DNA of 21,029 nucleotides from a virus: UHGV virus genome UHGV-1794847. The stretch is one strand, 5' to 3'. The notes beneath the pieces are model-generated. The model ran no database searches. It had not been told where the DNA came from and saw only the letters and a program-made list of their open reading frames with translations. Position 1 is the first letter of the stretch. Each line of letters begins with the position of its first letter. The position numbers and the translations under genes are program-made. Below are positions 1 to 20,528 of this stretch, one piece after another.

Positions 1-494
1 ATCGCAAGCACATGCTGGCAATCACCTGTAGCAATGATGTGCTCAGGATTTGCTGCATAGTAGATGTCTTTTGCTTGCTTGATGAGCGACTTCACCTCAG
101 GGTACATGTCATAGTTGTCGAGCACGCCATCAACTGCTATTGCTCGAATGATTGGCTCATCGGTTGATGCAACATCTACTGCGTCTTCGATTGCTAATGC
201 AGCCTTTTGCATATTTGCAGAGCCATCACTCATCAAATCTTCCATGACAAGTGACGCCTTGAAGCCAAAGCCATCTGCACCAATTGCTGCTTTCTGTGAT
301 TTTGCAAATGCGCGTACAGCAGCATCTTTGCTATTTGCGGCGCTTTCCAAAATCATTGCAGCTTTTCGAAGAGTCAGACCAGACTTTTTGATTTGTGCAA
401 GTGACTCATTGACAAAGTTTGCACCGCCAAAAGTCAATGCTTTGATGCCTTTGATACCTTGAACAAATGCATCAACGTTTACAGTATGTTTCAT
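1..494 (-). CDS. Hypothetical protein, partial (3' end runs off the window start); begins MKHTVNVDAFVQGIKGIK
   Basis: Manual reverse-complement translation: ATG at 492..494, open frame of 164 codons to position 1 with no stop. Starts 7 nt after the stop of the upstream gene (502..504). Absent from the ORF track, presumably because it has no stop in the window; the plus ORF 115..462 is its antisense shadow. Confidence 0.5.
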   Translation of the reverse strand, partial: MKHTVNVDAFVQGIKGIKALTFGGANFVNESLAQIKKSGLTLRKAAMILESAANSKDAAVRAFAKSQKAAIGADGFGFKASLVMEDLMSDGSANMQKAALAIEDAVDVASTDEPIIRAIAVDGVLDNYDMYPEVKSLIKQAKDIYYAANPEHIIATGDCQHVLA

Positions 495-501
495 AGTCTA
501 C

Positions 502-1992
502 TTATGCCTTTTTAGATTTGCGCTTTGCAGCAACTACGACTTCTGCTACGATAGCTTCTACAGTAGCTTCAGTTACAACAGACTTGTCTGCAACTTTTAC
601 AAGAGCTGCATGCAACTTGTAGTTGCCGACTTTGCTGAAAGTGCACTTGAATTCTGTTGTTGCGTTGTATTCTGCAGGTACTGCAAAGCCGCTGTCAGGA
701 CCCCATGCACCACTGTCTTCGAATGTCCAAGGCTGACCCTGTGAATCTGTTGCAGTGAATGTCACATGACCATCTTCAGGTGCTTCTACAATTTCATATT
801 GCAGCTGAACGCCATCAACACCTGCCTTACCAACTACTTCAGTTGCAAGCGTTGCATTGATTGCTACTTCTGTTGCAGGCTGAATGCTTGCAGGGACATC
901 TACAGAAATCTTGTATTCTGATACTTCAGGCTGAACTGGCTCAGCAACAACTACTGTAGACTCTGCTTCAACAACTACACTGTCATCAGCAACCTTGGCA
1001 AGAACTGCATGCAATTTGTATGTGCCAGCCTTGCTAAAGATTACAGTGAACTTTGTAGTTGCATTGTATTCTGCAGGAATGTCAAAGCCTGTTGCAGGCC
1101 CCCAAGTGCCATTGTCGACAAATGTATATTCCTTGCCAGCAGCGTCAGTAGCCTTGAATGTCACATGGCCATCTTCAGGTGCTTCGTCTACACCATAGCG
1201 GAACTGAACTTTGTCAACACCGACATCACCAACAGTCTTCGTTTTGAATGTTGCATCAAGCTCAACTTCAGTGTTTTCGATGATTGTTTCAGGCGCAGAC
1301 ATTTCAAACTCATACTCAGATACTGTTTGCACAGCTTGTTCAAGTTTGATGTTCTTTGTCTTGTTTGAAATCATAGTTTCACGACCAGCCTGGCTAACGT
1401 AGCCCTCTTTAGACACTTCCCAGACAATTTCTTCGCCTGACAAAACAGTCAACGAATTGCGAACTTCACCATTCATCTTGACAACTGCATCTGCAGGTTC
1501 TACATTGATTGTCAGTGTAGCTTTGCTGAGCTCAACAAGCTCCACTACTTGAATGACATCATGGTTTGTGAGCGTGATTGTGCCCTCCTGAGATTCATAG
1601 CCCTCTTTCGACACTTCCCACTTAATTGGAATGCCTGCGGGCACATTCTCAAGCATCTTTGTAGCCTCACCATTGATTTCTACATGAGCATCTTCAGGCA
1701 CTGGCTGAATTGTGATGCTGAACTTGTCTTTGCCAGGTTCAGGGTCTGGTCCGGGTCCTGGGTCATCACCAGTAATTGCAGGGATAATTGTCTTTTCGAT
1801 GACTTTTTGAGCTTCTGCAGTTGTGCCATAGAATTTGAGAGTTTTCTTGGCTTCTTCTACAGACATTTTCTCAAGATTGTCTGCAAGATATGTCAGACCA
1901 GTGACTGCAGCAATTTTCTGCCGCATTTCTGGGCTAATGACTACACCAGTAGATTTGACCACTGGAGCAGCTTGTTTTTGTTTCTTTGCCAT
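502..1992 (-). CDS. Repeat-containing surface/structural-like protein: Pro/Gly/Asp-rich linker, two PEGA-like repeats, two Ig-like ~105-aa repeats
   Basis: ATG at 1990..1992, TAA at 502..504. Two ~60-aa repeats with PEDAHVEINGE / PADAVVKMNGE and WEVSKEGY signatures resembling the PEGA domain; two C-terminal repeats sharing VEAPEDGHVTF..WGP..PAEYNATT..FSK.G.YKLHA. Linker GDDPGPGPDPEPG. Domain names are from memory of family signatures. Confidence 0.75.
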   Translation of the reverse strand: MAKKQKQAAPVVKSTGVVISPEMRQKIAAVTGLTYLADNLEKMSVEEAKKTLKFYGTTAEAQKVIEKTIIPAITGDDPGPGPDPEPGKDKFSITIQPVPEDAHVEINGEATKMLENVPAGIPIKWEVSKEGYESQEGTITLTNHDVIQVVELVELSKATLTINVEPADAVVKMNGEVRNSLTVLSGEEIVWEVSKEGYVSQAGRETMISNKTKNIKLEQAVQTVSEYEFEMSAPETIIENTEVELDATFKTKTVGDVGVDKVQFRYGVDEAPEDGHVTFKATDAAGKEYTFVDNGTWGPATGFDIPAEYNATTKFTVIFSKAGTYKLHAVLAKVADDSVVVEAESTVVVAEPVQPEVSEYKISVDVPASIQPATEVAINATLATEVVGKAGVDGVQLQYEIVEAPEDGHVTFTATDSQGQPWTFEDSGAWGPDSGFAVPAEYNATTEFKCTFSKVGNYKLHAALVKVADKSVVTEATVEAIVAEVVVAAKRKSKKA

Positions 1993-2078
1993 AAGATATT
2001 GTGAATTTGGTTGTTATTCTTAACAAAATATGTACATACAGATGCAACAGATGATATGTCAGATGCACAAAACTGCAT

Positions 2079-2127
2079 AAAATGACCAGACTTGCAAATA
2101 AATTTAAGCAAGTCTGGTCATCAGTTT
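2079..2127 (-). terminator. Intrinsic terminator downstream of the polymerase C-terminal gene
   Basis: Perfect 14-bp inverted repeat atgaccagacttgc (2082..2095) / gcaagtctggtcat (2108..2121) with 12-nt loop, flanked by AAA on one side and TTTT (2124..2127) on the other; lies directly after the stop at 2136. Confidence 0.6.
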
Positions 2128-2135
2128 TGATTGCA

Positions 2136-3428
2136 CTACAACAATGACGGCACTCGTTGAGTTTCAAGTGGGTCACTGACATTGATGCCTGTGTATGCAA
2201 CAAGTCGTTGTATTGGGCCAAGCACGAGTTTTTCGAACATGAGTCGCTTATTCATTGGTGGCACATCTGGCATGTACTTAGGCGTTGGCATTTCACCTGG
2301 CGCAAAGCCAAATGCATCGCAATATTGACGAGAACCAATTGGGATATTTGACAAATCTGACTTTGCTCTATCGACGAAATAGTAGAACACTCTACCGCCT
2401 TCAATCAATGTATATCGTGTTTCCAATCCATGAGCTTTTACAAGTGCGTTATGGTATGCACAAGCCCTGTACTGAGGCAGTACGCCTTTTGCTAACTGCC
2501 ATTCGCCATCATAGCTTAGCACATAGTCATGATACTTGTTTGCATTGACATATGCACAAAGTTTCTCCAAGTCTTGCTCGGCTTCAAAGCGTTTCCATAA
2601 TTTCTGTATGAGCTTTGGATATGTCGCAGAAGTCAATTCACCTCTGAACATTTTCTTGAATGCATAATCAAGCATTTGCCTAACAAGCATTGATGAGCCT
2701 GTTTGAATAAGTTCGATGCCTTTGCCTTGAATGTGCTCAGTAGGGTCTTCGAATACTCGACCATCTACATATATTTGAGCCTTTAAGTACTTTTTCTTTT
2801 GGGCAAATAATGCAGTGTCAGAAATCGTTTCGAGGTCAAATAGCAAAATTGAATTGCCATGACGTTTTGCGAGGTCTGCTGCATATGCCCCATTGAATAA
2901 TTCTTCCATACGATATTTGAATATCGCAAGAATCAAGTCATACCAATTTTTGCCTATGTAGCCAATTGATTTGACAGTTGGCTCAAAGTGAATGTACAAA
3001 GAGTCTGTGTCAATATACAACACTTTGTCTTCATAGGGTTCTTGCTTTGGCGACACAGACAAATCAAAATTGCCCTTCAATTGTGGGTCATTACGCAGCT
3101 TTTCATGCAATTCATAATCACACCACCACTTATTGTTAAGATAGTCATTTGCTACTCGTTCACCAAAGTGAATGAAGTTGCGGCCTTCAGCAGTAATTGA
3201 TTCTGCAACAGCCATATTAAAGAAGTGATAGAAACGATTGCTTGTAGCGCCATATATTGAGTTTCGACAACATTTTGCTGAGACTTGTAGTCCTGCATGC
3301 TTTAGTGATTCTTGCATTGCAAAATCTCTCAATTCAAATAGACGTTCAGTAGACAACTGACTCAAATCACCAGTCAAATCTACTCCATCTATTTCAATTT
3401 TTGACATATCTATCTGAGCTTCTGCCAT
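2136..3428 (-). CDS. Family-B DNA polymerase, C-terminal part (motif B, motif C, thumb)
   Basis: Motif B KCCRNSIYG verified at 3249..3275 (K-x3-NS-x-YG) and motif C YIDTDS at 3000..3017 (YGDTDS-type). Stop TAG at 2136..2138. Start set to ATG at 3426..3428; the track's 3518 start is a TTG codon, and an alternative ATG exists at 3459..3461. Confidence 0.85.
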   Translation of the reverse strand: MAEAQIDMSKIEIDGVDLTGDLSQLSTERLFELRDFAMQESLKHAGLQVSAKCCRNSIYGATSNRFYHFFNMAVAESITAEGRNFIHFGERVANDYLNNKWWCDYELHEKLRNDPQLKGNFDLSVSPKQEPYEDKVLYIDTDSLYIHFEPTVKSIGYIGKNWYDLILAIFKYRMEELFNGAYAADLAKRHGNSILLFDLETISDTALFAQKKKYLKAQIYVDGRVFEDPTEHIQGKGIELIQTGSSMLVRQMLDYAFKKMFRGELTSATYPKLIQKLWKRFEAEQDLEKLCAYVNANKYHDYVLSYDGEWQLAKGVLPQYRACAYHNALVKAHGLETRYTLIEGGRVFYYFVDRAKSDLSNIPIGSRQYCDAFGFAPGEMPTPKYMPDVPPMNKRLMFEKLVLGPIQRLVAYTGINVSDPLETQRVPSLL

Positions 3429-3496: not shown

Positions 3497-4459
3497 CTAA
3501 ACTTTTACATGACCACAATCAAACACAGGATAAAATTGCCGTTGTAGCATAGTATTTGTGTCAAAATTGCCATCAATAAGATGTTCGTGTGTGCGCCAAT
3601 TATGCCAATGTTTTTGAATTGTCTGCAAGTTATCTGATTTTTGTGGATTCAATGCAAAGTCTGTTGATAGCACAGGTTCATTGTTCAAATGCGCTTGTAT
3701 TGCTGCAATAACTGCTTCAACAGACATCCACTCAAATGCAGTCACACAAATAAAACCTGCACGCAATGCATCTTGAGTTTTGTAAAAGTGATATGTTGGA
3801 TGAGTTGCTGCGCATTTTGATGCATTTTTGACAAGTGCATCAAAGCTTTTTGCGCTGTTATGCGACACTGTTGGATTGATTTCTACTACGACATTGTCAT
3901 ATCGCAAATCATACAACTTTAAGCCTATTCTGTAGTCATATTCAAAATTTATGCCAAGACGTTCAAATAGCAATGCATGCCAACGTTCATTAAGTTTTGA
4001 CTGTATTTGACCAGATGCTGCTCTGCATTTTGCATGCATGCAAAAATACGGCACATCATATCGCTCTTCACATGTTTGACGCAACTTAGCAATGTTTGCA
4101 GGCCCAAGCTTGCCAAAATGCTTAAGCTTAGTTGCATTTGCTTTGTCAGTATTGCTTGGACCTGCTTTGCCAAAATGTTCAAGCTTTGTCGCATTCGCTT
4201 TGTCAGTATTGCCTGGTCCAAGCTTGCCAAAATGTTTAAGCTTAGTCTGCTTGCATTGCTCTGTTACATATGATAACTGCATATTGTGTTCTACACCATA
4301 TTTTCGCAACATTGCAATTCGCCTGATGTATTTTCTACGAATTTTGCTGTGCGACGTCTTTCTTGGTGCGTATCTAACATATGGTGTATTTGCAATCAAC
4401 TCATCTCGCTCGTTTTCAAGTTTAGCAATACGAGCATCAATCTCTTCTTTTGTCATCAT
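3497..4459 (-). CDS. Repeat-containing putative DNA-binding / homing-endonuclease-like protein, class unassigned
   Basis: ATG at 4457..4459. Three tandem 19-aa repeats (TKLKHFGKLGPGNTDKANA) encoded by a 57-bp DNA repeat; basic N-terminus. Sits between the two polymerase halves, where freestanding endonucleases typically reside. No GIY-YIG or HNH motif recognised; the motif LYDLRYDNVVVEINPTVSH is only loosely nuclease-like. Confidence 0.55.
   Translation of the reverse strand: MMTKEEIDARIAKLENERDELIANTPYVRYAPRKTSHSKIRRKYIRRIAMLRKYGVEHNMQLSYVTEQCKQTKLKHFGKLGPGNTDKANATKLEHFGKAGPSNTDKANATKLKHFGKLGPANIAKLRQTCEERYDVPYFCMHAKCRAASGQIQSKLNERWHALLFERLGINFEYDYRIGLKLYDLRYDNVVVEINPTVSHNSAKSFDALVKNASKCAATHPTYHFYKTQDALRAGFICVTAFEWMSVEAVIAAIQAHLNNEPVLSTDFALNPQKSDNLQTIQKHWHNWRTHEHLIDGNFDTNTMLQRQFYPVFDCGHVKV
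4101..4260 (-). repeat. 57-bp in-frame tandem repeat, about 2.8 copies, inside CDS 3497..4459
   Basis: Units starting near 4108, 4165 and 4222 (gcttgccaaaatgcttaagcttagttgcatttgctttgtcagtattgc and variants); period 57 = 19 codons. Confidence 0.8.
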
Positions 4460-5439: not shown

Positions 5440-5814
5440 TCATCGATTGTCGCCTGACCCATGTAGTACGCCTCGTAATTTTCGAGACTGCAGTTTCTGA
5501 ATGTTAAGCTGACAAATGTCAGTTAAGCTGTAGCCCAAATCATGTGCAAGAGTTGCAGCGTACCACATGACATCACTGAGCTCTTTTGCGATTTCCTTGC
5601 GAATGTCTTCATTGTCAAAATCGCCATTCTTGTCTCGAATGACTTTTTTGACTTTGTCTGCAACTTCGCCTGCTTCACCCGTTAAGCCAAGTGTTGGATA
5701 GATAATTGCAGCTGATTTAGGATACACTGCGCTATCAAGTGCAGCAATCTGATATTCATCAATAGTTGAAATCTGTGCATGGTCGATTACGCCATGTTCA
5801 TCTCGTTTAAGCAT
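5440..5814 (-). CDS. mazG: MazG-like nucleoside triphosphate pyrophosphohydrolase
   Basis: ATG at 5812..5814. Motifs LGLTGEAGEVADKVKK and ELSDVMWYAATLAHDLGYSL match the MazG EEXX(E/D) helix signature common in phages. Confidence 0.8.
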   Translation of the reverse strand: MLKRDEHGVIDHAQISTIDEYQIAALDSAVYPKSAAIIYPTLGLTGEAGEVADKVKKVIRDKNGDFDNEDIRKEIAKELSDVMWYAATLAHDLGYSLTDICQLNIQKLQSRKLRGVLHGSGDNR

Positions 5815-5815
5815 A

Positions 5816-6307
5816 TCATTTACGTTTTTGTTTGACTCTCAATCGTTTTTGCATAAATGCTCTTGTAGCTTCACCAAAAGCCATTTCATCTCGTTCACCG
5901 CCGCAAAGCTTTGCAAGCTTATTGAATGTGTCTTGGTCAATCATTGTGTATGTTGAGTTGTTGACCACATGCAATGCAAACTGAATCAGCGGTGTGCCTG
6001 GCTGCAAGCAGAATGGCTCTTTACCTGCATTGTACACTGCAAGATGAATCTCGCCATGATAGTCTGAATCTACAAACTCACTTGTTTTAATGATAAGATG
6101 ATTTCGTGAAATACCCGACTTGTTGTAGGCAATCAATGCATGACCAGCAGGCACAAGTGCTTTGATGCCAGATGGAATTGCAATGCCCTCGCCAGGTTGC
6201 AGCATTGTTTGCACAAAATCATTGGGTATGCAAAAGTCCCATGCGCCAGATTCTGCTGTTGACTTAAAAGGACTTTCTACATTTCTGCATTTTGCAAAGA
6301 ATAACAT
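5816..6307 (-). CDS. dut: dUTPase-like protein (dUTPase/dCTP deaminase superfamily)
   Basis: ATG at 6305..6307, stop TGA at 5816..5818, one nt before the MazG start. Motif-like segments SGAWDF, KSGISRNH, FVDSDYHGEI (compare G-x-ID-x-DYRGE), LIQF, and a C-terminal Gly-rich GGERDEMAFGEAT. Confidence 0.7.
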   Translation of the reverse strand: MLFFAKCRNVESPFKSTAESGAWDFCIPNDFVQTMLQPGEGIAIPSGIKALVPAGHALIAYNKSGISRNHLIIKTSEFVDSDYHGEIHLAVYNAGKEPFCLQPGTPLIQFALHVVNNSTYTMIDQDTFNKLAKLCGGERDEMAFGEATRAFMQKRLRVKQKRK

Positions 6308-6695: not shown

Positions 6696-8201
6696 TTACA
6701 ATTTGATTGCACCTCTACGAGCAAGCTCTTCTTCAATCAATCTAACATGATTGTTAGCATACCAAAATTGCAATTTTTTGTGATAATTGCGAATGTCGCC
6801 AAGCTGTTCTTGAGTTTCTTTATACATTGAAGGCTCTCTATTGTCATACAGACAATTATTGACAGACACAAAGTAATTTGGGTCTGCTTTGTAATGCTCG
6901 ATTTCATCAGGATTTGTCAAACGTCTAATAAAGTTGTCTGGTGAAATATTCGCCGAGCGCATACTTGACGGATACAACGAGTTTGCATCAACACAGACAA
7001 CCATACGAGCCCAATGGTTAAATGGCTGCTTAACAAAGCCGCCCTCAAATGAATGTACAACATTCTCCGGACCGCCTTGAGCGCATACAACTTTACCGCC
7101 ATATTTGTTGTACAAATATGTCATCATGACGCCCTCAGATTGCTTAACTGGTCCTTGACAGTGATTCATGTCAATATTTGTCATATTTGACAATGACATT
7201 ACATTTGATATCAAGTCAGTTTTTGCAGCAATCATCGCATTGACCATCGTATCGACAGCATTATATGCAATGAACGTGCATGGATGATACAAATACAGCT
7301 CTTTAAGTGTGCAATCATAGGGCAGCTTACCTACGCCAAACATACGATGTGCAATATAGTCAAGTCGCAATGACTCTTTTTGCCACACTGAATAGTCGTA
7401 TGTGTCCATGAGTTGCATGTAGTCATCAATGTACTTGTGATATGGCATGCCATTGCCCCAGACAGTTCTGCCAACTGGAGATGCCAATGCTAAATCAATA
7501 TTGTGCATTGCGCATCGATTTTTGATATAGATGCTATCGAAGCCATTGATGTTCCAACCTGTCAATGCAGGAATGTTTTTGAAGAGCTTAGTCACCCAAA
7601 AATGCAACAATTCATGCTCATTTGCATGTTGAAAGATTTTGACAGTCGGACGCTCTTTCAAATATGCAGCAAAGCAATGCTGACCCATGTACTCTTGAAT
7701 GATGTTATTGACAAACTCAAATGCATCGTCCAGTGTTGGGTTTTGTTTGCCACAGCTTTTGCGCAAATCATCGTCATTCAACAAGTCAACAGTTGTCTGA
7801 ATGACACAATTACATTGCTCATCACATGTACTTATTGCATTAATGGGCATTTCAGCTTTGTCAGGCTTTGGAAAGCCATTGCCAATTTCAGTCTCAATAT
7901 CGTAAAAGTACAACTTTGGTCTACGATAAGCAAACAATTCAGCTTTGTCAGCTTCAGGCAATTCAAATAAGAATTGCAGTAAGTCAAATTGATTGAATCG
8001 CTTTGCTGTAACTCGAGTTACTGGCAATTTGCGCCAATCTTGAATATCTGCATATTGCGGCTCTACATGGTCTGATATTTGCCATACTGGAAATTGATAT
8101 GGCTGTTCACAGACAGGATATGTTTTAATATCAATGCCACCTTGCTCATTAACGTATGAAACTTCAATGCCATGTGACAAATATGCTACATCGACAATCA
8201 T
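6696..8201 (-). CDS. Family-B DNA polymerase, N-terminal part (3'-5' exonuclease domain plus motif A)
   Basis: Exo I FYDIETE (about 7893..7901), Exo II-like WNINGFD, Exo III-like YNAVD, and motif A DANSLYPS verified at 6966..6989. Ends with TAA at 6696..6698 about 100 aa after motif A, before any motif B. Start set to ATG 8199..8201; the track's 8237 start is TTG. Confidence 0.9.
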   Translation of the reverse strand: MIVDVAYLSHGIEVSYVNEQGGIDIKTYPVCEQPYQFPVWQISDHVEPQYADIQDWRKLPVTRVTAKRFNQFDLLQFLFELPEADKAELFAYRRPKLYFYDIETEIGNGFPKPDKAEMPINAISTCDEQCNCVIQTTVDLLNDDDLRKSCGKQNPTLDDAFEFVNNIIQEYMGQHCFAAYLKERPTVKIFQHANEHELLHFWVTKLFKNIPALTGWNINGFDSIYIKNRCAMHNIDLALASPVGRTVWGNGMPYHKYIDDYMQLMDTYDYSVWQKESLRLDYIAHRMFGVGKLPYDCTLKELYLYHPCTFIAYNAVDTMVNAMIAAKTDLISNVMSLSNMTNIDMNHCQGPVKQSEGVMMTYLYNKYGGKVVCAQGGPENVVHSFEGGFVKQPFNHWARMVVCVDANSLYPSSMRSANISPDNFIRRLTNPDEIEHYKADPNYFVSVNNCLYDNREPSMYKETQEQLGDIRNYHKKLQFWYANNHVRLIEEELARRGAIKL

Positions 8202-8212
8202 ATTATTATCTT

Positions 8213-8623
8213 TTAGAATAGAGATATTGTACAACAATTTGATTCAGGTTGCCATTCTACAATATGCGCATCAAAGTGTTTGTTAAGCCAATGTGCAAGT
8301 ATGTGTCTATGACAAAATGCAGATGGTCTGCACCAGCATAACAGTACAATGTCTCGTTCACCAGCAAGAAGCTTTATGCGATGCAGCATCAAACTTATCT
8401 GTGACAATGCAGCGTCAAGTTTTGCAGTGTATTGCTCTGCATATTGTGCATTGTCAAGCAAGCCTACTTTATGCAAACGAACAAGTGACATGTAATCAGG
8501 CATGACGTCAGTCCATGTAAAATCTGCTATGAAGCCCTTAGGTTTTGTTGCAGATACTTGAACAAGAAATGCGTTATCAGGCAGATGCCTGCATGCATAA
8601 TATGAAGTCAAGATTCTTGTCAT
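8213..8623 (-). CDS. DUF488-like protein
   Basis: ATG at 8621..8623, overlapping the upstream stop as ATGA. C-terminal RDIVLLCWCRPSAFCHRHILAHWL resembles the conserved LLC..E....CHR.l.a..L block of DUF488 (YeaO-like) proteins, recalled from memory. Confidence 0.5.
   Translation of the reverse strand: MTRILTSYYACRHLPDNAFLVQVSATKPKGFIADFTWTDVMPDYMSLVRLHKVGLLDNAQYAEQYTAKLDAALSQISLMLHRIKLLAGERDIVLLCWCRPSAFCHRHILAHWLNKHFDAHIVEWQPESNCCTISLF
8225..8235 (-). promoter_or_regulatory. Conserved GTTGTACAATA element, 23 nt upstream of the polymerase N-part ATG
   Basis: Plus tattgtacaac at 8225..8235; same 11-mer as at 3449..3459 and 10317..10327. Confidence 0.35.
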
Positions 8624-12622: not shown

Positions 12623-15600
12623 CTATCGAACAATCGATGTAATTGATGCTACTGGTATCGTACCAATGATTGATGTAGTTGAGCGGAAGTCTGCATAGAC
12701 TTTAATGTCAAATGTGAACTCCTTGCCACCAATGTAGCATATGAAATTCATTGTTTTTGTGTATGACAACTTGTTTTGTTGAGTATTGCTGTCAATGTCA
12801 GATGAACCAACTGCATCAGTCATACGAGCCTGGAACAACAATGGTATCAGCAATGCATTGTTTTCACCAGGCTTAACTACATAAGCTGCAGAATCAGTAC
12901 TATTCGAAACTTGCATTTGATTGACTGTTGTCGGATTCAACAGCAAGAATGCGCCACGACTATTTGCGCCGACTGCATAGACGTCGTTGTCTGTGAATGC
13001 GCATTTAGGCGCGTTTTCTGCAGTAAGTTCAAGTGGCAGAATCTGCTGATACTTTGACTTAATAACTGAATTGAACTTAGCAAGCTCTGCAAATGCAGCA
13101 GTCAAAGCAGCTTTTGTTTGTTCATTCTTGTTTGCTGAGTATGCAATCCATGCTGGATGCTGAACAGACATCAGATTATATGCGTCTGGTGATACTGTCG
13201 ACTTCAATGCAATCGCTTCATAATCATCGTCATTCTTATGAACAAATTTGCGATTTGCTGCTTGTGCAGAAGTGTCAATGTTTTGTGTTTCTACAGTAGA
13301 CGATGATGGTGTTTCTGCAGCAACATACAGCTTTTCTGTGCCTGCTACGTTTTTCAAACCAGCATACAATGTTTGACCCATGTATTGACGAGTGCCATAC
13401 GGTGCTAAGATGTCATTGCTGTCATATGCATCGCTGTTAAGCACTACAGGCACGTCATAGACATCTGCAAAATCTTGTAGTTTGTCTGTAATATGCTGTG
13501 ATAAGTCGCCATGATATCGTGGATACAATGAGATGTTTTCTGCACCAATATTGTAGAACTTCAGCCAATATTGTCGAGTAAGCACTTTGCCATAGTTGTC
13601 TGCTGAAGTAATGTCAAACTTATCTGCATAAGTGCCAGCAAACAAAACATTGCTCGAGCCATTCAGAATTTCTGTTTGATTGCCCTCGTCATCTACGATT
13701 GCAACTCGAAGCATTGAACCTTGATTCAGAATGATGTCTTTGAGCTGCGCAACTTCATTGCTAAGTGACAGCAGTTTTTCATATGTTGTCACTTTTGCAA
13801 GTTCTGATGTGAAGAAGCCTGATGCAATGTTTTGAGCATTGTGAGCATAGTAGATGTTGTTTTCTGAGAATGCATCTGCAATATGCTTGATAAGTCCTTT
13901 GTTCTCAAGCATATTTTCAAGAGCCACATTTTGCTTATCAATTGCAAGTTCATCTTTAAGTGTGACGAACATTGCAGAAGCTGCAAGACTTTCTGGGAAC
14001 TGAATGCTTACGATGTTTGACCACTCAGACTCATTGAGCACGTTTGGATAGCCTGCTTCACCAATTGCTTTGACACGGAACTGAACAATCTCATTAGCAG
14101 AAATTGGAATTTCAAGCTGATTGCATGAGATTGCATCAATGGATTCTGAATTGATTGGTTCCCATTGAATGCTACCATCGACAATGATTTTGCGACGAAG
14201 TGGCGTAAATACTTCATTCCATGTGCTAAATGCTGCTGTCGTAATTGTGCCTGCTGCGTTTTCGATGTCAAATGTGTCTGCCTTTGCTACTGTGCCATTC
14301 AATGACGCATATCTGTACTGCACCTTGAACTGCACAATGTTTTGTGCAGCAGTAAATCTACTGATTGCGGGGTCTTGTACTGGCAAGAAGCCTCGAACTC
14401 TAAACTTCGGATTATATAATGCGTCATATGCAGCGCCATTGATATTCAGCATCTCATCAATGATATTTGTGAGTGTTTGCAGTCGTTCTGCTCTTTGCTG
14501 AGTCAACGTAACATATTGCGTAGATGCTTTTTGACGTTCAACGTCATTCTTGAAATTATTTGTATTGAGCTTTGACATCACAGATGCGATATCAGAGTCA
14601 AGTACCGACATTTCTTGCTGAACTGCTCGTTTTTGATTGTACAATGACAAAATTCGAGATTTGTCAGTGTTGTCAATCAAATGTGTGTTAAGCTGAATAA
14701 CTTTGAATGATTCTGCAGACAATTGCAAACGATTTGGCTTAATTGCATATTGCGATGGCGCAAGCATATCAGTAGTCAATGCTGCAATATAAGCGCCAAT
14801 TGATGCGTCGCCATGTGACAACATATACGAGTTTGCATTGACAAGCTCATTTGTTGCAGTACGAATTGTAAGTGTTGCAGTGTCAATCAAAACTGCTGGG
14901 CTGTACTGAGCTACTGTGTTATATGCATCATGCACAGGCGACAAGAACAACACGAATTTTTCAGAATGTCGAAGTGGTACTTCAACGACTTTTCGAACAA
15001 TGGGCTCTACAAAGACGAGGTCAGTGACTTCTACATTCAATGCATTCAAGCCTGCAGTACGCTGCAGTATACATGTTTGCGACAGTTTGTCAATCGAAAC
15101 AATTTGCAGTAATACTGAACCAGTCGGGTCTGATAATGTGTCACCGACTTTCAATGTCAGTGAACCGGCAACCTTTGCGTCAATTGCATCATATACAATG
15201 CTGTCAAGTTTGACAGCAATTGTGCCATTGTTCGCATTTTGCTTCTTGAGAATTTTGAAGCTGCCACTTGATGCTGCTCGTCGTGGTCGCAAATTAACTG
15301 TGAAGTCTTCAAGAGTATAGTCATCATCAGTATGCCAGCCATGCGCATCAATTTCAGCAAGCAATGCAGCATGGCTCATTTCAATGTCTGTTTGTGCCAC
15401 AATTTGCTGCAATGCAGCAAACATGGCATCTGAGCATATGTACTTTGTAACTTGACATTGTTTAAGATATGATGATGCTTGACCAGTCACATCAATTTGC
15501 ACATGCATACCAAGCGCTGTTGTGCGTTCAAACATATCATTGCCAAGTGCGACAACATTGTTATCTTCTGCTATCGTGCCCTGCAAAGTCTTCAATGTCT

Positions 15601-15928
15601 CAGGCTGATTCAGCAAGCTCATATGCACCATTGTACGCATATTGTTGTTTGCATCTACAAGTTGTGCATACAACTGCTCACCATTATTTAAGCCTGTCAA
15701 GACTTTCATATTTTGCTCAATGACAGCCATGCGACGTTGAATTGACGCAAAGCTTGGCACAGTAATGCTTGTTGTGCTTCTATCATCATTTGTCAATGTT
15801 ATTGTGACTGTATCTTCTGATGATGACACTGCAGCTTGCAACACATCAAGATATTGCAGACTGTTATTGTACAGTTGCTTGATGTCTGCCAGCAATTGTT
15901 GCATTGCATTTGTTGAAACTTCTGACAT
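12623..15928 (-). CDS. Large hypothetical protein (about 1101 aa), probable virion structural protein
   Basis: The track start 15976 is TTG; first ATG at 15926..15928 (MSEVSTNAMQQLL). Beta-rich S/T/N/V composition with a central predicted coiled-coil segment (SRILSLYNQKRAVQQEMSVLDSDIASVMSKL...); no ATPase or enzymatic motif seen. Confidence 0.8.
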   Translation of the reverse strand: MSEVSTNAMQQLLADIKQLYNNSLQYLDVLQAAVSSSEDTVTITLTNDDRSTTSITVPSFASIQRRMAVIEQNMKVLTGLNNGEQLYAQLVDANNNMRTMVHMSLLNQPETLKTLQGTIAEDNNVVALGNDMFERTTALGMHVQIDVTGQASSYLKQCQVTKYICSDAMFAALQQIVAQTDIEMSHAALLAEIDAHGWHTDDDYTLEDFTVNLRPRRAASSGSFKILKKQNANNGTIAVKLDSIVYDAIDAKVAGSLTLKVGDTLSDPTGSVLLQIVSIDKLSQTCILQRTAGLNALNVEVTDLVFVEPIVRKVVEVPLRHSEKFVLFLSPVHDAYNTVAQYSPAVLIDTATLTIRTATNELVNANSYMLSHGDASIGAYIAALTTDMLAPSQYAIKPNRLQLSAESFKVIQLNTHLIDNTDKSRILSLYNQKRAVQQEMSVLDSDIASVMSKLNTNNFKNDVERQKASTQYVTLTQQRAERLQTLTNIIDEMLNINGAAYDALYNPKFRVRGFLPVQDPAISRFTAAQNIVQFKVQYRYASLNGTVAKADTFDIENAAGTITTAAFSTWNEVFTPLRRKIIVDGSIQWEPINSESIDAISCNQLEIPISANEIVQFRVKAIGEAGYPNVLNESEWSNIVSIQFPESLAASAMFVTLKDELAIDKQNVALENMLENKGLIKHIADAFSENNIYYAHNAQNIASGFFTSELAKVTTYEKLLSLSNEVAQLKDIILNQGSMLRVAIVDDEGNQTEILNGSSNVLFAGTYADKFDITSADNYGKVLTRQYWLKFYNIGAENISLYPRYHGDLSQHITDKLQDFADVYDVPVVLNSDAYDSNDILAPYGTRQYMGQTLYAGLKNVAGTEKLYVAAETPSSSTVETQNIDTSAQAANRKFVHKNDDDYEAIALKSTVSPDAYNLMSVQHPAWIAYSANKNEQTKAALTAAFAELAKFNSVIKSKYQQILPLELTAENAPKCAFTDNDVYAVGANSRGAFLLLNPTTVNQMQVSNSTDSAAYVVKPGENNALLIPLLFQARMTDAVGSSDIDSNTQQNKLSYTKTMNFICYIGGKEFTFDIKVYADFRSTTSIIGTIPVASITSIVR

Positions 15929-15953
15929 ATGCTTAAATGTAATTTGTTCTTGT

Positions 15954-16005
15954 TTTTGATGCAAGATGCAAAACAATTAAAATTGTTTTGATGCAAAATG
16001 CAAAA
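15954..16005 (-). repeat. Two 20-bp direct repeats TTTTGATGCAA(G/A)ATGCAAAA, 32 bp apart, upstream of the large gene
   Basis: Copies at 15954..15973 and 15986..16005 with one mismatch; sense-strand reading TTTTGCAT(C/T)TTGCATCAAAA, 26 to 77 nt upstream of ATG 15928. Confidence 0.6.
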
Positions 16006-16030
16006 ATCTGTTAGATTTTTGATATGTACA

Positions 16031-17266: not shown

Positions 17267-17878
17267 TTATGGTGTAACAATCGGTCCGCCACCAGGCAAA
17301 CTTGAACATGTTTGCATGTATGTATACAACAAATTTCCTGCGTTTTGCATAATGTTTGCGAACATCAATGCAATGCCGCGCAAATCAGCTTCGCCTTCAA
17401 ATGTGTTGATAAATGCTTGCTGAGCGCATGCAAACATTACTGGCACAGTAGATGCACTTGTCATTGCTATCACAGGTCCGCCAGGCGACAAGGGCAACAC
17501 CGGTGGCGATGCTGGCACAGTTAAGTTTGTTGGAATCCATGCTGCAACTGCTGCAGCATAAGGCTTAAAGCCATTGCCAAACTTTATTGCAATGTTCTTT
17601 GGGTCTGATTCACCTTGAAAAGTTTCTATAAGTGCTTGTCTACCTGCTTCAAATAGAGATTGCTCAAGTGTAGCAGTTGGACCTGCAGTTATTGGACCGC
17701 CGACAGGCAAACCTGTGCAAGTTGCAATGTAGCTTGCTACACCCGTAGCAAACAATTGACTGAATTTGTTGGCAAACTTTGTCGCAATTTGCGGTCTATC
17801 AAGCTCACCTTGAAAAGTTGCAGTGTATGCTTGATATGCAATGGGCTGCACAGCAGCTTGCAATGTAGCGCCTGGCAT
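17267..17878 (-). CDS. Triple-repeat protein (three ~65-aa repeats)
   Basis: ATG at 17876..17878. Repeats share TF(Q/E)GE.D....IA.KF.N ... LP.GGPI; the DNA shows three degenerate ~200-bp tandem repeats. Confidence 0.7.
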   Translation of the reverse strand: MPGATLQAAVQPIAYQAYTATFQGELDRPQIATKFANKFSQLFATGVASYIATCTGLPVGGPITAGPTATLEQSLFEAGRQALIETFQGESDPKNIAIKFGNGFKPYAAAVAAWIPTNLTVPASPPVLPLSPGGPVIAMTSASTVPVMFACAQQAFINTFEGEADLRGIALMFANIMQNAGNLLYTYMQTCSSLPGGGPIVTP

Positions 17879-18163: not shown

Positions 18164-19042
18164 TTAGTCTTGGCCTTTATCAATTGTGGCAATTTTTGAC
18201 AGAGTTTCAGGCAAAAAGTCTGAGTCTTTCTTATGCGTGTTATTTGATGGCTGCTGCACTTTTGCAGGATACGTGCCAAATACAGGTGCAAGTGGGCTTG
18301 TGTATGGGTTGCCTTGAGCTGTCGTCTGGAGCTGCTTCATAACTTCTGCAAGATTATCTACAACTTCTTTCACATAGTCAAGAACATTTTGATGCGCAGT
18401 TTTGTTGTCATCTCCAACTACGCAAGGCTGTTCTGATTTATCTGTGCTACCAAAGCTCAAGTGACCATCAGCAGTCATATGAATGACGCCATTTTTATCA
18501 GCGTCAGTAGTCATATGAATTGATTTATCCTTACGCAAATTGATGTCTGTGCCATTGTAGTGAATATGCCATCCTTGCTCTGGTGTCCACCATATGCCAA
18601 ACTTGCCCTCAGCACCATATCGTTCAGCATCATCATAGACTACAATCTTTGCTTTGGCGTTTTCATCACCAATGACGTCTTTTGCGATATCTGAACGAGA
18701 ATCAAGATGCAGCCAAGTCATATTGTAGACGCCTCGACTCAAATCAAGCATGACCCAATCGCCAACAATTGGCGCATCATACATGTTCATCATGCTGCTA
18801 TCTGCATAGCACCATGGCAGCTTGTCTGTAGCAATTTCATTGTCAGCAAATCGAGTAAAGCCATCAATTTGACAGCGGATACGACATTGTAACATGTCAT
18901 CATCAACATCAACAACTTCACCAATGAGCTTAACAGGCATACCCTCTGTCAAAGACCCAATTGATGATGCAGTTATTGATGCATTGTATGCTGATATCTT
19001 TTCAAACAGCTCTTCTTGAGTAACAAGCAACATATCAGACAT
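18164..19042 (-). CDS. Hypothetical protein (292 aa), possibly virion-associated
   Basis: ATG at 19040..19042 overlapping the upstream TAA (TAATG). Contains duplicated SIHMTTDAD / VIHMTADGH segments; function not recognised. Confidence 0.7.
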   Translation of the reverse strand: MSDMLLVTQEELFEKISAYNASITASSIGSLTEGMPVKLIGEVVDVDDDMLQCRIRCQIDGFTRFADNEIATDKLPWCYADSSMMNMYDAPIVGDWVMLDLSRGVYNMTWLHLDSRSDIAKDVIGDENAKAKIVVYDDAERYGAEGKFGIWWTPEQGWHIHYNGTDINLRKDKSIHMTTDADKNGVIHMTADGHLSFGSTDKSEQPCVVGDDNKTAHQNVLDYVKEVVDNLAEVMKQLQTTAQGNPYTSPLAPVFGTYPAKVQQPSNNTHKKDSDFLPETLSKIATIDKGQD

Positions 19043-20472
19043 TACATTGAATCTTCATACACGTTGATGCGACCAAGCTTTGGCAGTTTTTCTTGGTCTG
19101 GTTCATACACAGGATTTGCAAGTGCTTTCTGTGATAAGCTGTCATCATATTTTGCTACTGCAGACCCTTTGAGCAATTGCTTTGCTCTTGAATATGCAAA
19201 CTGTGGATTTGTCAATGCTGCAATTTCAACAGCATTCAAGCCATAGACATTGCCAACAGTCTTGCCAACAAGTATTCGACTTGCTTGCATATTGATTTCA
19301 GCCAACGCATTTGCTGCAGTAGACAAAGCAAATTCTTTTGCATATTCAAGTGCTTCTTTAGCAGCTTTGTTAACTGCATCTTTAAGCAATTGTTTGACAG
19401 ACTGGCCTTTCATTGTCGACACAACTTGCTGCGTAATCTTGCCATACTTGCTATCTTTTGCAAGCTTGACAAATTGCTGGCCATAAGTCTCTTTCTTTTT
19501 CTCAACTGTTTCTGACGTATCAGTGTCACTAAGAAGTTTTTGAGACTGCACTACAAGGCCTTTGTGACTATCTTTCATTGCTGCAAATGCAGATGAAATT
19601 GACAATGTGCCATATGACACTTTGATGTTGTTTGTCGCCATTGTAGGCTCAGCAGTGTTGTCTATATCTTGCACAAAGTTTGCGCCAGAATCAGGCATAA
19701 ACGCGCATTGACCAAAGTTGAAAAGCACATACTGTCCAGCATTGATTACGACTGCAATGTCATCAGGTCTTGCCATTTGAGTTGATGATAACACGCCTTC
19801 TATTCGTGCTTGCTGAATTGCTTTGATGTCTTCGCCGTAGTTTGCAACTTCTGTTCTCGTATCACCAAAACTGTGCTCAGACATACCAAGCATTTGCTCA
19901 ACTTCATTGTCAAGCTTGAGTGACTTATCATCTGCAAGTTCTTCTTGGAATATGCGAACTTCTGTTACATACACAAACATGTTGAAGCGTTGCAAGTTCA
20001 GTGGTAGCACATAGACCATGCGGTCGTAGTCATATAACACTTGCTTGAGCAGCGTGTTAATTGTTGCAAATCGCCAGTCAATGCTTTCTGTCACAGTAAG
20101 CCCAACGGTTTTGTCATTCAAAATGACTTCTTTCATTGTTCGCTTATATGCATCAGCAAGTCCTTGAATGCCTGTAAAGCAATGAAATGCAGAGTCCTGA
20201 ATTGCTTGCAGCATCTTTATGACAATTTCAAGCTGTGCATATCGTGTTTCATCGCCAATTCGCTTCAAATATGCCAATGCGCTGTTCTTAAACTTAGCAT
20301 CTGCAAGTAAACCCATTTCAGAGTCAAAGTTAAAGAACACTCTGAATGTCAAATATGTTGGGTCTTGATATGCATTGCACAACACACCATTTATGACCTC
20401 TGGGTCAAGTGACATGAACTGGTATACACCATTGAACATGTCTATGCGTGAAGTTGCGTGATTTGATGGCAT
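19042..20472 (-). CDS. Hypothetical protein (476 aa), possibly virion-associated
   Basis: ATG at 20470..20472, first gene after terminator 20529..20561; no Walker A or other catalytic motif seen. Confidence 0.75.
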   Translation of the reverse strand: MPSNHATSRIDMFNGVYQFMSLDPEVINGVLCNAYQDPTYLTFRVFFNFDSEMGLLADAKFKNSALAYLKRIGDETRYAQLEIVIKMLQAIQDSAFHCFTGIQGLADAYKRTMKEVILNDKTVGLTVTESIDWRFATINTLLKQVLYDYDRMVYVLPLNLQRFNMFVYVTEVRIFQEELADDKSLKLDNEVEQMLGMSEHSFGDTRTEVANYGEDIKAIQQARIEGVLSSTQMARPDDIAVVINAGQYVLFNFGQCAFMPDSGANFVQDIDNTAEPTMATNNIKVSYGTLSISSAFAAMKDSHKGLVVQSQKLLSDTDTSETVEKKKETYGQQFVKLAKDSKYGKITQQVVSTMKGQSVKQLLKDAVNKAAKEALEYAKEFALSTAANALAEINMQASRILVGKTVGNVYGLNAVEIAALTNPQFAYSRAKQLLKGSAVAKYDDSLSQKALANPVYEPDQEKLPKLGRINVYEDSM

Positions 20473-20528
20473 ATTGTGTATAGTTTGCTTTCTTAATTTT
20501 TGGATATATACACATGCTCAAACTGCAC

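What the first reader, a model, noticed from the sequence alone, without database searches (positions are those of the whole stretch)
502..1992. Modular repeat protein: two PEGA-like and two Ig-like domains behind a Pro/Gly/Asp linker
The 496-aa protein has an N-terminal region, a flexible GDDPGPGPDPEPG linker, two ~60-aa PEGA-like repeats and two ~105-aa beta-rich repeats that are also visible as a ~360-bp tandem DNA duplication (about 530..1250). Such display modules on phage particles commonly mediate adhesion to surfaces or glycans. It sits directly upstream of a partial ORF at the window start that may be structural.
Basis: partly seen in the sequence, partly recalled or inferred. Interest (0 to 1): 0.45.

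Follow-up and report, generated by a model that had tools for sequence, protein, structure and literature searches.

The report
Modular surface-display fibre protein of a phage
This is a real, selectively maintained phage gene that strings two PEGA-like and two Ig-like beta-sandwich modules behind a small helical anchor domain and a proline-rich hinge; it is most likely a dispensable sticky decoration on the virus particle, an ordinary kind of protein built from partly unannotated parts.

Summary
The ORF (window 502-1992, minus strand, 496 aa) is real and under purifying selection (dN/dS 0.10-0.16). It has seven parts:
- a disordered N-terminus;
- a four-helix N-domain (aa 21-74);
- a Pro/Gly/Asp/Glu hinge;
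- two about 66-aa domains of Pfam PF25641 (PEGA-like), homologous only to the exposed C-terminal domain of crAss001 head-fibre gp29;
- two about 130-aa Ig-like sandwiches, 57% identical, DNA period 399 nt rather than 360;
- a short basic tail.

The B domain has no Pfam model. It is nevertheless widespread (880 cluster representatives) in bacterial surface proteins carrying SLH, PKD, T9SS and cohesin domains.

The phage has a genome of about 175 kb and a T4-like core. It is distantly related to Chryseobacterium, Tenacibaculum and PAU jumbo phages. The gene is an accessory insertion after the split DNA polymerase and is absent from phage MA9V-2.

Relatives keep the N-domain and basic tail but swap, delete or add the middle modules. 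A promoter-like motif, TGTAYATAT, is shared with portal and prohead-protease genes.

Best reading: a late-expressed virion display or adhesion fibre similar to Hoc, pb10 or gp29. Whether it sits on the head or the tail is unresolved, and virion association is inferred, not shown. It is a new member of a known kind, of modest interest.

The parts
502..1992 (-). Complete gene for the 496-aa modular protein, with its stop codon at 502-504.
   Evidence: ORF list. Pairwise dN/dS is 0.10-0.16 against four close relatives. The true start is the ATG at 1992: the upstream extension called in relatives is out of frame in the window because of a 1-nt difference.
1768..1992 (-). N-domain, aa 1-75. Residues 1-15 are disordered and basic; a four-helix domain covers aa 21-74 and carries the invariant TGL.YLA..E motif. 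Proposed virion anchor.
   Evidence: AF2 helices at 21-31, 36-40, 45-55 and 59-74, pLDDT 73-79. It is the most conserved part of the family. It has no Pfam, PHROG or PDB match. It occurs once per locus.
1729..1767 (-). Pro/Gly/Asp/Glu hinge, aa 76-88 (DDPGPGPDPEPGK).
   Evidence: pLDDT is below 50 for aa 77-83. One GP unit is missing in the relative P0003.
1531..1728 (-). A1, aa 89-154: PEGA-like / Head_fiber_dimeric beta-sandwich.
   Evidence: PEGA 2.1e-4, matched stretch aa 92-149; PF25641 two stretches. BLASTP to the crAss001 gp29 C-terminal domain gives 42% identity.
1327..1530 (-). A2, aa 155-222: second Head_fiber_dimeric beta-sandwich.
   Evidence: PF25641 best stretch 157-218. PDB 7qof_j residues 50-116, E 5.9e-9. 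47% identical to A1.
922..1326 (-). B1, aa 223-357: Ig-like (MG/CARDB-like) beta-sandwich, first copy.
   Evidence: 57% identical to B2. DNA direct repeat with period 399. Predicted all-beta.
541..921 (-). B2, aa 358-484: Ig-like beta-sandwich, second copy. Missing in relatives L010 and L011.
505..540 (-). C-terminal basic tail, aa 485-496 (VVVAAKRKSKKA). A basic tail is kept across domain-swapped relatives.
   Evidence: Alignment A2. Disordered in the model. Removed by a GAA-to-TAA change in L010 and L011.
2028..2036 (-). Promoter-like motif TGTACATAT, ending 36 nt upstream of the ATG.
   Evidence: 4 matches in the window against 0.5 expected. The same motif lies 36-85 nt upstream of the portal, prohead-protease-like, 1117-aa and 476-aa genes in the window, L001 and L003.
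2083..2121 (-). Intrinsic-terminator-like hairpin (14-bp stem, T-run after it) between the DNA polymerase C-half and this gene.
   Evidence: Sequence. Folding energy -26.9 kcal/mol, z = -7.0. Equivalent hairpins occur in L001 and L003.
3..494 (-). 5' part of the conserved downstream gene (429 aa in relatives), function unknown. A neighbour, not part of the protein.
   Evidence: Translation. Full-length copies in L013, L014 and L001. Homologous to MA9V-2 gp197. No family match.

Best explanation
The gene encodes a non-essential, late-expressed surface-display fibre of a phage with a genome of about 175 kb and a T4-like core, probably infecting Bacteroidota.

Proposed mechanism:
- The conserved four-helix N-domain docks the protein onto a virion structure. 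This is most likely the capsid surface, as in T5 pb10, T4 Hoc and crAss001 gp29.
- The Pro/Gly/Asp/Glu hinge lets the rest of the protein swing freely.
- The two PEGA-like domains form a stalk.
- The two Ig-like B domains, and possibly the lysine-rich tail, make weak multivalent contacts with anionic glycans. Candidates are host capsule or LPS, or mucus. Such contacts would keep the particle where hosts are.
- Specificity evolves by swapping, duplicating or deleting the middle modules between the conserved ends, not by point mutation.

Shown here: the domain anatomy, the folds, the homologies, the purifying selection, the accessory and cassette-like evolution, and the shared upstream motif.

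Inferred only: virion attachment, head location, glycan binding, and the role of the tail.
For: - It is a real gene. dN/dS is 0.10-0.16 in every domain, against 0.03-0.08 in the flanking genes.
- Phage context. It lies next to a split family-B DNA polymerase whose best relatives are the Chryseobacterium MA9V, Tenacibaculum PTm1/PTm5 and Sphingomonas PAU jumbo phages. In relatives L001 and L003 the T4 gp2, Portal_T4 and prohead-protease genes lie 6-9 kb downstream. Near-identical copies sit on IMG/VR contigs of 175.6 and 174.6 kb.
- The A domains match the solvent-exposed C-terminal sandwich of the cryo-EM-proven head fibre gp29 (PMC10172136).
- The same Pfam domain occurs in structural modules of other phages.
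- B is an Ig-like sandwich. Its homologues are tandem repeats in bacterial cell-surface proteins that also carry SLH, PKD, Big_2, T9SS-tail and cohesin domains.
- The layout of helical N-domain, Pro-rich linker and exposed sandwich domains mirrors T5 pb10 (PMC5292684).
- There is no signal peptide or hydrophobic segment (sequence).
- It is an accessory cassette. It is absent between the same two genes in MA9V-2. Relatives keep the N-domain and basic tail but carry different middles. A close relative lacks B2.
- The motif T[AG]TA[CT]ATAT sits after a terminator and 36-85 nt before this gene. It sits in the same position before portal and protease-like genes: 7 of 9 hits fall in 3.5% of the sequence.
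- In distant relatives the gene lies beside the terminase and tail-sheath genes (L009), or beside a collagen-like tail-fibre gene (L007).
- PTm1 and PTm5, distant relatives, show head-fibre-like appendages by EM (cited in PMC8643167).
Against: - No proteomic or structural datum places this protein in a virion.
- The N-domain has no detectable homologue of known function.
- The match to gp29 excludes gp29's capsid-binding residues 1-47.
- PTm1, PTm5 and all cultured phages lack a full-length homologue.
- Foldseek against viral models returns tail proteins, baseplate proteins and Hoc alike.
- The immediate neighbours are a DNA polymerase half and an unknown gene followed by a sigma-like ORF. They are not head genes.
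- The promoter motif was defined post hoc and its timing is unknown.
- The basic tail is lost in L010 and L011, so it cannot be essential.
Confidence: 0.5

Rival explanations
1. The protein is virion-borne but sits on the tail, neck or baseplate. It would be an accessory side fibre or auxiliary receptor-binding protein, with the N-domain docking onto a tail component and the B domains contacting the host surface polysaccharide directly.
For: - PF25641 repeats occur in long proteins placed where podovirus and siphovirus tail fibres sit: after portal and adaptor genes, and next to a BACON-domain protein.
- The top BFVD structural match is annotated 'Tail protein'.
- In L007 the homologue is immediately followed by a collagen-like tail-fibre gene.
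- Some family members carry a distal module in place of B that looks, by eye only, like a beta-helix, as tailspikes have. This is untested: Pfam matches nothing there.
Against: - There is no similarity to any tail-fibre anchor or PHROG tail family.
- In three lineages the gene is not in the baseplate or tail-fibre cluster of the window (18164-20472), but next to the polymerase.
- The layout of a small monomer-type helical anchor plus hinge resembles capsid decoration proteins.
- The gene is dispensable in MA9V-2.
Confidence: 0.27
2. The protein is not part of the virion. It is made in the infected cell and released at lysis, or acts intracellularly. It might bind host envelope polymers or debris so that progeny are not trapped, or act as an adhesin or decoy.
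For: - There is no direct evidence of virion incorporation.
- The gene sits at the end of a replication gene block.
- B-domain homologues are cellular surface proteins, including a 157-aa chromosomal lipoprotein-like protein.
Against: - There is no signal peptide, so export before lysis is unlikely.
- It has its own transcription unit, with a motif shared with portal and protease genes.
- A conserved N-terminal docking-type domain with a swappable distal part is the hallmark of virion appendages.
- The A domain is otherwise known only from virion proteins.
Confidence: 0.13
3. The protein is a capsid cement protein. Its main role would be mechanical stabilisation of a large T4-like head, with the sandwich domains as passive spacers.
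For: Decoration proteins such as pb10 measurably stabilise capsids (PMC5292684; review PMC7602432, listed).
Against: - The gene is absent from related phages with comparable genomes (MA9V-2).
- The distal modules are exchanged freely, and one is deleted in close relatives. That fits a binding function better than a structural lattice.
- A long flexible hinge is ill suited to cementing.
Confidence: 0.06

Closest known systems
crAss001 gp29, dimeric head fibre protein (PDB 7QOF/8CKB; Pfam PF25641)
   Same: The A1 and A2 domains are homologous to gp29 residues 48-116, at 39-42% identity. That is the beta-sandwich projecting from the capsid (PMC10172136). Both proteins have an N-terminal non-sandwich part followed by exposed sandwich domains.
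   Different: - gp29 is 122 aa with one sandwich. This protein is 496 aa with four.
- gp29's capsid-binding N-terminus (residues 1-58 in the paper) has no counterpart here.
- The phages are unrelated: Crassvirales podovirus-like against a T4-like core.
- Oligomeric state is unknown here.
Phage T5 decoration protein pb10
   Same: Both have the same design logic: an alpha-helical N-terminal domain of about 70 aa, a proline-rich linker, and a solvent-exposed Ig-like domain. Both are accessory and dispensable (PMC5292684).
   Different: - There is no sequence similarity. pb10 is not among the PDB hits even at E = 10.
- pb10 has one Ig-like domain, against four sandwiches plus a basic tail here.
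- Capsid binding is demonstrated for pb10 and not tested here.
T4 Hoc and Hoc-like mucus-adhering capsid proteins
   Same: It is an accessory protein made of tandem Ig-like domains in a phage with a T4-type portal and protease. The proposed role of weak glycan or mucin adherence is the same (PMC11853027, PMC11150434, PMC6867891; titles and abstracts listed).
   Different: - By my own knowledge of the T4 literature (not read here), Hoc anchors by its C-terminal domain and displays its N-terminal Ig domains. Here the conserved putative anchor is N-terminal.
- No Pfam or PHROG hit to Hoc families.
- A Hoc model appears only at rank 28 of the generic Foldseek matches.
Bacterial cell-surface repeat proteins carrying the B domain (with SLH, PKD, Big_2, Flg_new, T9SS C-terminal tail or cohesin)
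   Same: The B1 and B2 domains are clear homologues. A profile search gives 880 hits at E <= 1e-3 and 414 at E <= 1e-10, often as 2-8 tandem copies. These are extracellular display proteins.
   Different: Those proteins are cellular, exported, and anchored by SLH, lipid or T9SS signals. This one is phage-encoded, has no export signal, and carries a phage-specific N-domain.

Membership tests
Pfam PF25641 Head_fiber_dimeric domain | Sequence score above the curated gathering threshold (30 bits). | tested here: met
   77.5 bits, E 6.9e-22, two stretches (A1 and A2). PDB 7qof_j gives E 5.9e-9.
Pfam PF25641 Head_fiber_dimeric domain | Small beta-sandwich fold (CATH 2.60.40.1120-like, per PMC10172136). 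| tested here: inconclusive
   AF2 predicts 6 strands per A domain at pLDDT 80-90. The A domains were not fold-searched on their own.
crAss001 gp29-type head fibre (whole protein) | N-terminal capsid-binding segment (gp29 residues 1-58) that inserts into the hexon pocket. | tested here: not met
   The BLASTP alignment covers only gp29 residues 48-116. There is no similarity to its N-terminus.
crAss001 gp29-type head fibre (whole protein) | Physical location at hexamer centres of the capsid, as a dimer. | not testable with these tools
   This needs cryo-EM or proteomics. No multimer prediction was available.
Pfam PF08308 PEGA domain | Score above the gathering threshold (20.8 bits). | tested here: met
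   21.5 bits, E 2.1e-4, aa 92-149 (A1). This is marginal. Relatives P0006 and P0010 score 34-36 bits.
T4 Hoc family | Sequence membership in Hoc families, with a C-terminal capsid-binding domain. | tested here: not met
   No Pfam or PHROG Hoc hit. The conserved non-sandwich domain is N-terminal.
T5 pb10-like decoration proteins | An alpha-helical N-terminal domain, a Pro-rich linker and exposed Ig-like domain(s). | tested here: met
   Helices at aa 21-74, disordered hinge at aa 77-83, then sandwich domains. Compare PMC5292684. This is an architectural resemblance only.
T5 pb10-like decoration proteins | Homology of the N-terminal domain to the pb10 NTD. | tested here: not met
   A profile of the N-domain against all PDB sequences at E <= 10 finds only two chance-level hits, neither of them pb10. 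The fold comparison was not done.
Ig-like / E-set beta-sandwich (MG, CARDB, cohesin-like) | Fold similarity of the B domain. | tested here: met
NCBIfam NF038134 choice-of-anchor M domain | Score above the curated cut-off (55 bits). | tested here: not met
   25.2 bits, E 1.5e-5, aa 392-477. This suggests only a distant relationship.
Virion structural protein (any) | Presence in purified particles. | not testable with these tools
   No cultured phage carries a full-length homologue.

The most novel reading that the evidence does not exclude
The conserved four-helix N-domain and the basic C-terminal tail may define a previously undescribed cassette holder for capsid fibres in a lineage of T4-like phages (about 175 kb) that infect host-associated Bacteroidota. 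Binding modules would be shuffled into this holder from unrelated phages (the crAss-like head fibres) and from bacterial surface proteins (the B domain found with SLH, T9SS and cohesin domains). The phage's adhesion specificity would then be re-tooled by whole-domain exchange rather than by mutation. The N-domain would be a new capsid-docking fold usable for display.
Probability: 0.2. Interest if true: 0.5.

Novelty: new member of a known kind. Interest (0 to 1): 0.3.

Why it matters
If confirmed as a capsid fibre, it would extend the crAss001 head-fibre module to a second, unrelated phage lineage. That would suggest module trafficking between phages sharing Bacteroidota hosts or habitats.

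It would add a new small docking domain to the few known capsid anchors (pb10, Hoc, gp29), which are useful for phage display.

It would also flag a widespread, still unannotated Ig-like surface domain (about 880 sequence clusters) that deserves a family model.

In itself, an Ig-like or PEGA-like decoration protein on a phage is expected biology. The result mainly improves annotation.

Tried and rejected
- Tandem Repeats Finder on 1-3000 finds no array in the gene. The repeats are too diverged, so exact-seed repeat finding and protein self-alignment were used instead.
- PHROGs: no family for this protein.
- tblastn and megablast against 50,697 phage records: no match at 1e-5. At E <= 1, only the A domains match gp29 homologues of crAss-like Bacteroides phages.
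- N-domain searches returned nothing informative: Pfam, a PDB profile search (a dockerin hit at E 1.3 was rejected as chance, since there is no Ca-binding D-x-D pattern), and a word-indexed profile search that found only two fragments of the same family.
- Foldseek of the full-length model against PDB and BFVD returned generic tandem-sandwich proteins: transglutaminases, integrins, tail proteins, baseplate proteins and Hoc. TM-scores were below 0.3, so this is useless for deciding location.
- Diversifying selection on the distal domains was considered and rejected. dN/dS is 0.06-0.28 in all domains.
- The idea that the gene is a conserved core gene of this phage group was rejected. In MA9V-2 the polymerase C-half is followed directly by the homologue of the downstream 429-aa gene.
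- The N-terminal extension called in database entries (525-536 aa) was rejected. It overlaps the terminator and the motif, and it is out of frame in the window.
- The Kawato et al. 2020 paper on PTm1 head-fibre-like appendages is not held.
- The sigma-70 promoter and terminator consensus scans gave counts at chance level.

Full report
**Observation**

The window carries a 496-aa ORF at 502..1992 on the minus strand. Self-alignment of the product shows two repeat pairs:
- A1 (aa 89-154) and A2 (aa 155-222) are 47% identical, with a score of 107 against 24.7 +/- 4.9 for shuffles.
- B1 (aa 223-357) and B2 (aa 358-484) are 57% identical, with a score of 380 against 32.4 +/- 5.6.

At DNA level the B pair appears as a direct repeat of period 399 nt (566-726 against 965-1125, 70% identity). 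The A pair has a period of 198 nt. Over the whole units, nucleotide identity is 64% for B and 56% for A. Tandem Repeats Finder sees nothing.

The Pro/Gly/Asp/Glu stretch GDDPGPGPDPEPG is at aa 75-87.

The beta repeats are about 130 aa (399 nt, about 535..1323), not about 105 aa (360 bp, 530..1250). The gene is read right to left.

**The gene is real**

Four close relatives were compared codon by codon (L013, L014, L012, L010; 91-98% amino-acid identity). dN/dS is 0.10-0.16 overall and 0.06-0.28 for every domain that can be compared; B2 cannot be assessed against L010, which lacks it. The flanking polymerase and downstream genes give 0.03-0.08.

The start is the ATG at 1992. The 29-40-aa N-terminal extensions in database entries overlap a terminator hairpin. 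They are out of frame in the window because of a 1-nt length difference.

**Domains**

- Pfam places A1 and A2 in PF25641 'Head_fiber_dimeric' (77.5 bits, cut-off 30). A1 falls marginally in PEGA (21.5 bits against 20.8).
- The only significant PDB match is chain j of 7QOF/8CKB, the crAss001 head-fibre protein gp29, residues 50-116 (E 5.9e-9).
- The cryo-EM paper shows that gp29 residues 1-58 bind the hexon pocket as a dimer. Residues 58-118 form the exposed Ig-like sandwich (PMC10172136).
- BLASTP against the gp29 sequence confirms that only the exposed sandwich is shared, at 39-42% identity. Nothing matches its capsid-binding N-terminus.
- AlphaFold2 on a 13-sequence family alignment gives mean pLDDT 79.9. 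It predicts four helices at aa 21-74; disorder at aa 1-15, 77-83 and 487-496; and four all-beta domains.
- B2 modelled alone gives pLDDT 91.9 and pTM 0.81.
- No Pfam model covers B. NCBIfam gives only a sub-threshold hit to choice-of-anchor M (25 bits against 55).
- An exhaustive profile search nevertheless finds 880 cluster representatives at E <= 1e-3, and 414 at E <= 1e-10. Many carry 2-8 tandem copies, in proteins of up to 6,594 aa.
- Forty-two of these hits were scanned against Pfam. Ten carry SLH domains. Others carry PKD, Big_2, Listeria-Bacteroides repeats, beta-helices, T9SS sorting tails, cohesin or VWA.
- One single-domain homologue, P0019, is a 157-aa lipoprotein-like protein in a bacterial chromosome.
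- B is thus an unannotated bacterial cell-surface repeat domain.

The N-domain has no match in Pfam, PHROGs or the PDB.

**Genomic setting**

The window belongs to a phage.
- The gene follows the C-terminal half of a split family-B DNA polymerase (2136-3428). The N-terminal half is at 6696-8237. dUTPase, MazG and a homing-endonuclease-like gene lie between them.
- The polymerase's best cultured relatives are Chryseobacterium phages MA9V-1/2 (36% identity), Tenacibaculum PTm1/PTm5/pT24 and Sphingomonas PAU.
- Homologues of the fibre gene in L001 and L003 keep the order: polymerase C-half, fibre, 429-aa gene, then T4 gp2, Portal_T4 and a prohead-protease-like gene.
- Two IMG/VR contigs of 175.6 and 174.6 kb carry a 99%-identical copy.
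- In MA9V-2 the polymerase C-half is followed directly by the homologue of the 429-aa gene (E 4e-14). No fibre gene lies between them. The gene is therefore an accessory insertion.
- More distant family members sit beside the large terminase and tail sheath (L009), or beside a collagen-like tail-fibre gene (L007).

**Family and evolution**

Only about 15 sequence clusters out of 5.8 billion share the N-domain. All keep the N-domain, with an invariant TGL.YLA..E motif. All but the truncated P0003 variant and contig-end fragments also keep a short basic C-terminal tail. The middles differ:
- P0005 has no A domain and two B domains.
- P0017 has one A domain and one B-like domain.
- P0006 has two A domains, an unknown module and one B domain.
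- P0010 to P0015 have two A domains, mostly an unknown module, and a distal module that looks by eye like a beta-helix. Pfam matches nothing in these distal modules.

Close relatives also vary. L010 and L011 lack B2 entirely. They also carry a GAA-to-TAA change that cuts off the basic tail while its coding sequence remains downstream. L012 has a 31-aa in-frame deletion in B1.

Variation is therefore by module gain, loss and exchange under otherwise purifying selection.

**Regulatory signals**

A 14-bp-stem hairpin with a T-run (2083-2121; -26.9 kcal/mol, z = -7) follows the polymerase stop.

Between the hairpin and the ATG lies TGTACATAT (2028-2036). The pattern TGTAYATAT occurs 4 times in the window against 0.5 expected. 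The three copies on the coding strand each lie in an intergenic region after a hairpin. Each ends 32-46 nt before the start of a gene: the fibre gene, the 1117-aa gene and the 476-aa gene.

Across the window, L001 and L003, 7 of 9 coding-strand hits of T[AG]TA[CT]ATAT lie 36-85 nt upstream of starts. That class is 3.5% of the bases, giving a binomial probability of 2e-9. The motif was defined post hoc, so this probability is optimistic. The hits include the Portal_T4 gene and the prohead-protease-like gene. Replication genes in the window lack the motif.

I read this as a phage-specific, probably late, promoter that puts the gene in the same regulon as head-morphogenesis genes. This is an inference.

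**Mechanism**

The most economical model is a Hoc-, pb10- or gp29-like display fibre. The closest architectural analogue is T5 pb10. It has an alpha-helical N-terminal capsid-binding domain of about 70 aa, a polyproline linker and an exposed Ig-like domain, and it is dispensable (PMC5292684).

In this protein:
- the conserved helical N-domain would dock on the virion;
- the hinge would give freedom of movement;
- the PEGA-like pair would act as a stalk;
- the Ig-like pair, and perhaps the lysine-rich tail, would make weak contacts with glycans, as proposed for Hoc-type proteins in mucus (PMC11853027, PMC11150434 and PMC6867891, listed).

Head location is favoured by the pb10-like layout and by head-fibre-like appendages in the related PTm1/PTm5 phages (cited in PMC8643167).

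Head location is not demonstrated:
- PTm1 has no homologue of this protein.
- PF25641 repeats also occur in tail-fibre-like positions in other phages.
- Structural searches against viral models do not discriminate.

**Verdict**

The protein is a new member of the known class of modular Ig-like phage display proteins. Three points are of modest interest:
- a crAss001 head-fibre module in an unrelated T4-like lineage;
- an undescribed N-terminal docking-type domain;
- an unannotated, widespread surface Ig-like domain.

Interest is 0.3.

Noticed in passing
window 2028-2036, 16022-16030, 20504-20512 (minus strand); L001 9916, 18396, 20335; L003 20278: The promoter-like motif T[AG]TA[CT]ATAT lies after terminator hairpins and 36-85 nt before the fibre, 1117-aa, 476-aa, portal and prohead-protease-like genes. 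It is absent before the replication genes. It may be the late promoter of this phage group. A weak sigma-70 region-2-like ORF lies two genes downstream of the fibre gene in L013 (8867-9493).
   Followed up: partly
window 2136-3428 and 6696-8237 (minus strand): The family-B DNA polymerase is split into an exonuclease half and a polymerase half, 3.2 kb apart, with about six genes in between. These include dUTPase (5816-6307), MazG (5440-5814), a 275-aa unknown and an endonuclease-like gene. The split is conserved in L001, L003 and Chryseobacterium phage MA9V-2, which carry different inserted mobile genes (TnsA-like, TnpB).
   Followed up: partly
window 3497-4459 (minus strand); L013 9490-10440; L014 9390-10589: A 320-aa homing-endonuclease-like gene (Pfam DUF7487; weak PHROG homing-endonuclease hit) overlaps the annotated start of the polymerase C-half. 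It is absent at this position in L001 and L003. It contains an internal repeat, KL(K/E)HFGK(L/A)GP.N(T/I). A paralogue with the same N-terminus lies downstream of the fibre locus in the near-identical phages L013 and L014.
   Followed up: no
L010 about 720-760 compared with window 2083-2121: The terminator hairpin upstream of the fibre gene has the same stem in the relative L010, but its loop and the adjoining bases are inverted (TTAAATTTATT against AAATAAATTTAA).
   Followed up: no
window 17267-17878 (minus strand): This 203-aa protein is made of three internal repeats of about 65 aa, each containing a motif like TF(Q/E)GE.D...IA.KF(A/G)N and a Pro/Gly-rich end. It has no family match. It lies between baseplate-like and neck-like genes.
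   Followed up: no
window 12623-15976 (minus strand): This 1117-aa protein of unknown function (PHROG 29329) is conserved at 25-31% identity in the MA9V, PAU (gp264), PTm1/PTm5, pT24 and Flavobacterium MaF61 phages. It also matches records named Prevotella phage. It appears to be a signature gene of this phage group and carries the same upstream motif.
   Followed up: partly
window 8213-8623 (minus strand): A small ORF matches Pfam DUF488-N3a / DUF4326 (E 1.4e-9). It sits inside the replication gene block.
   Followed up: no
L016 9959-12421; L017 10107-14243: In unrelated phages, PF25641 (head-fibre-type) repeats occur in 650-1400-aa proteins just after portal and adaptor genes. One lies next to a BACON-domain protein. 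The domain is a general virion-surface module and is not specific to head fibres.
   Followed up: partly
L012 399-1796 (P0002): A close relative has a 31-aa in-frame deletion inside B1 that should remove two or three strands of the sandwich. This is either an assembly artefact or tolerated damage to one module.
   Followed up: no
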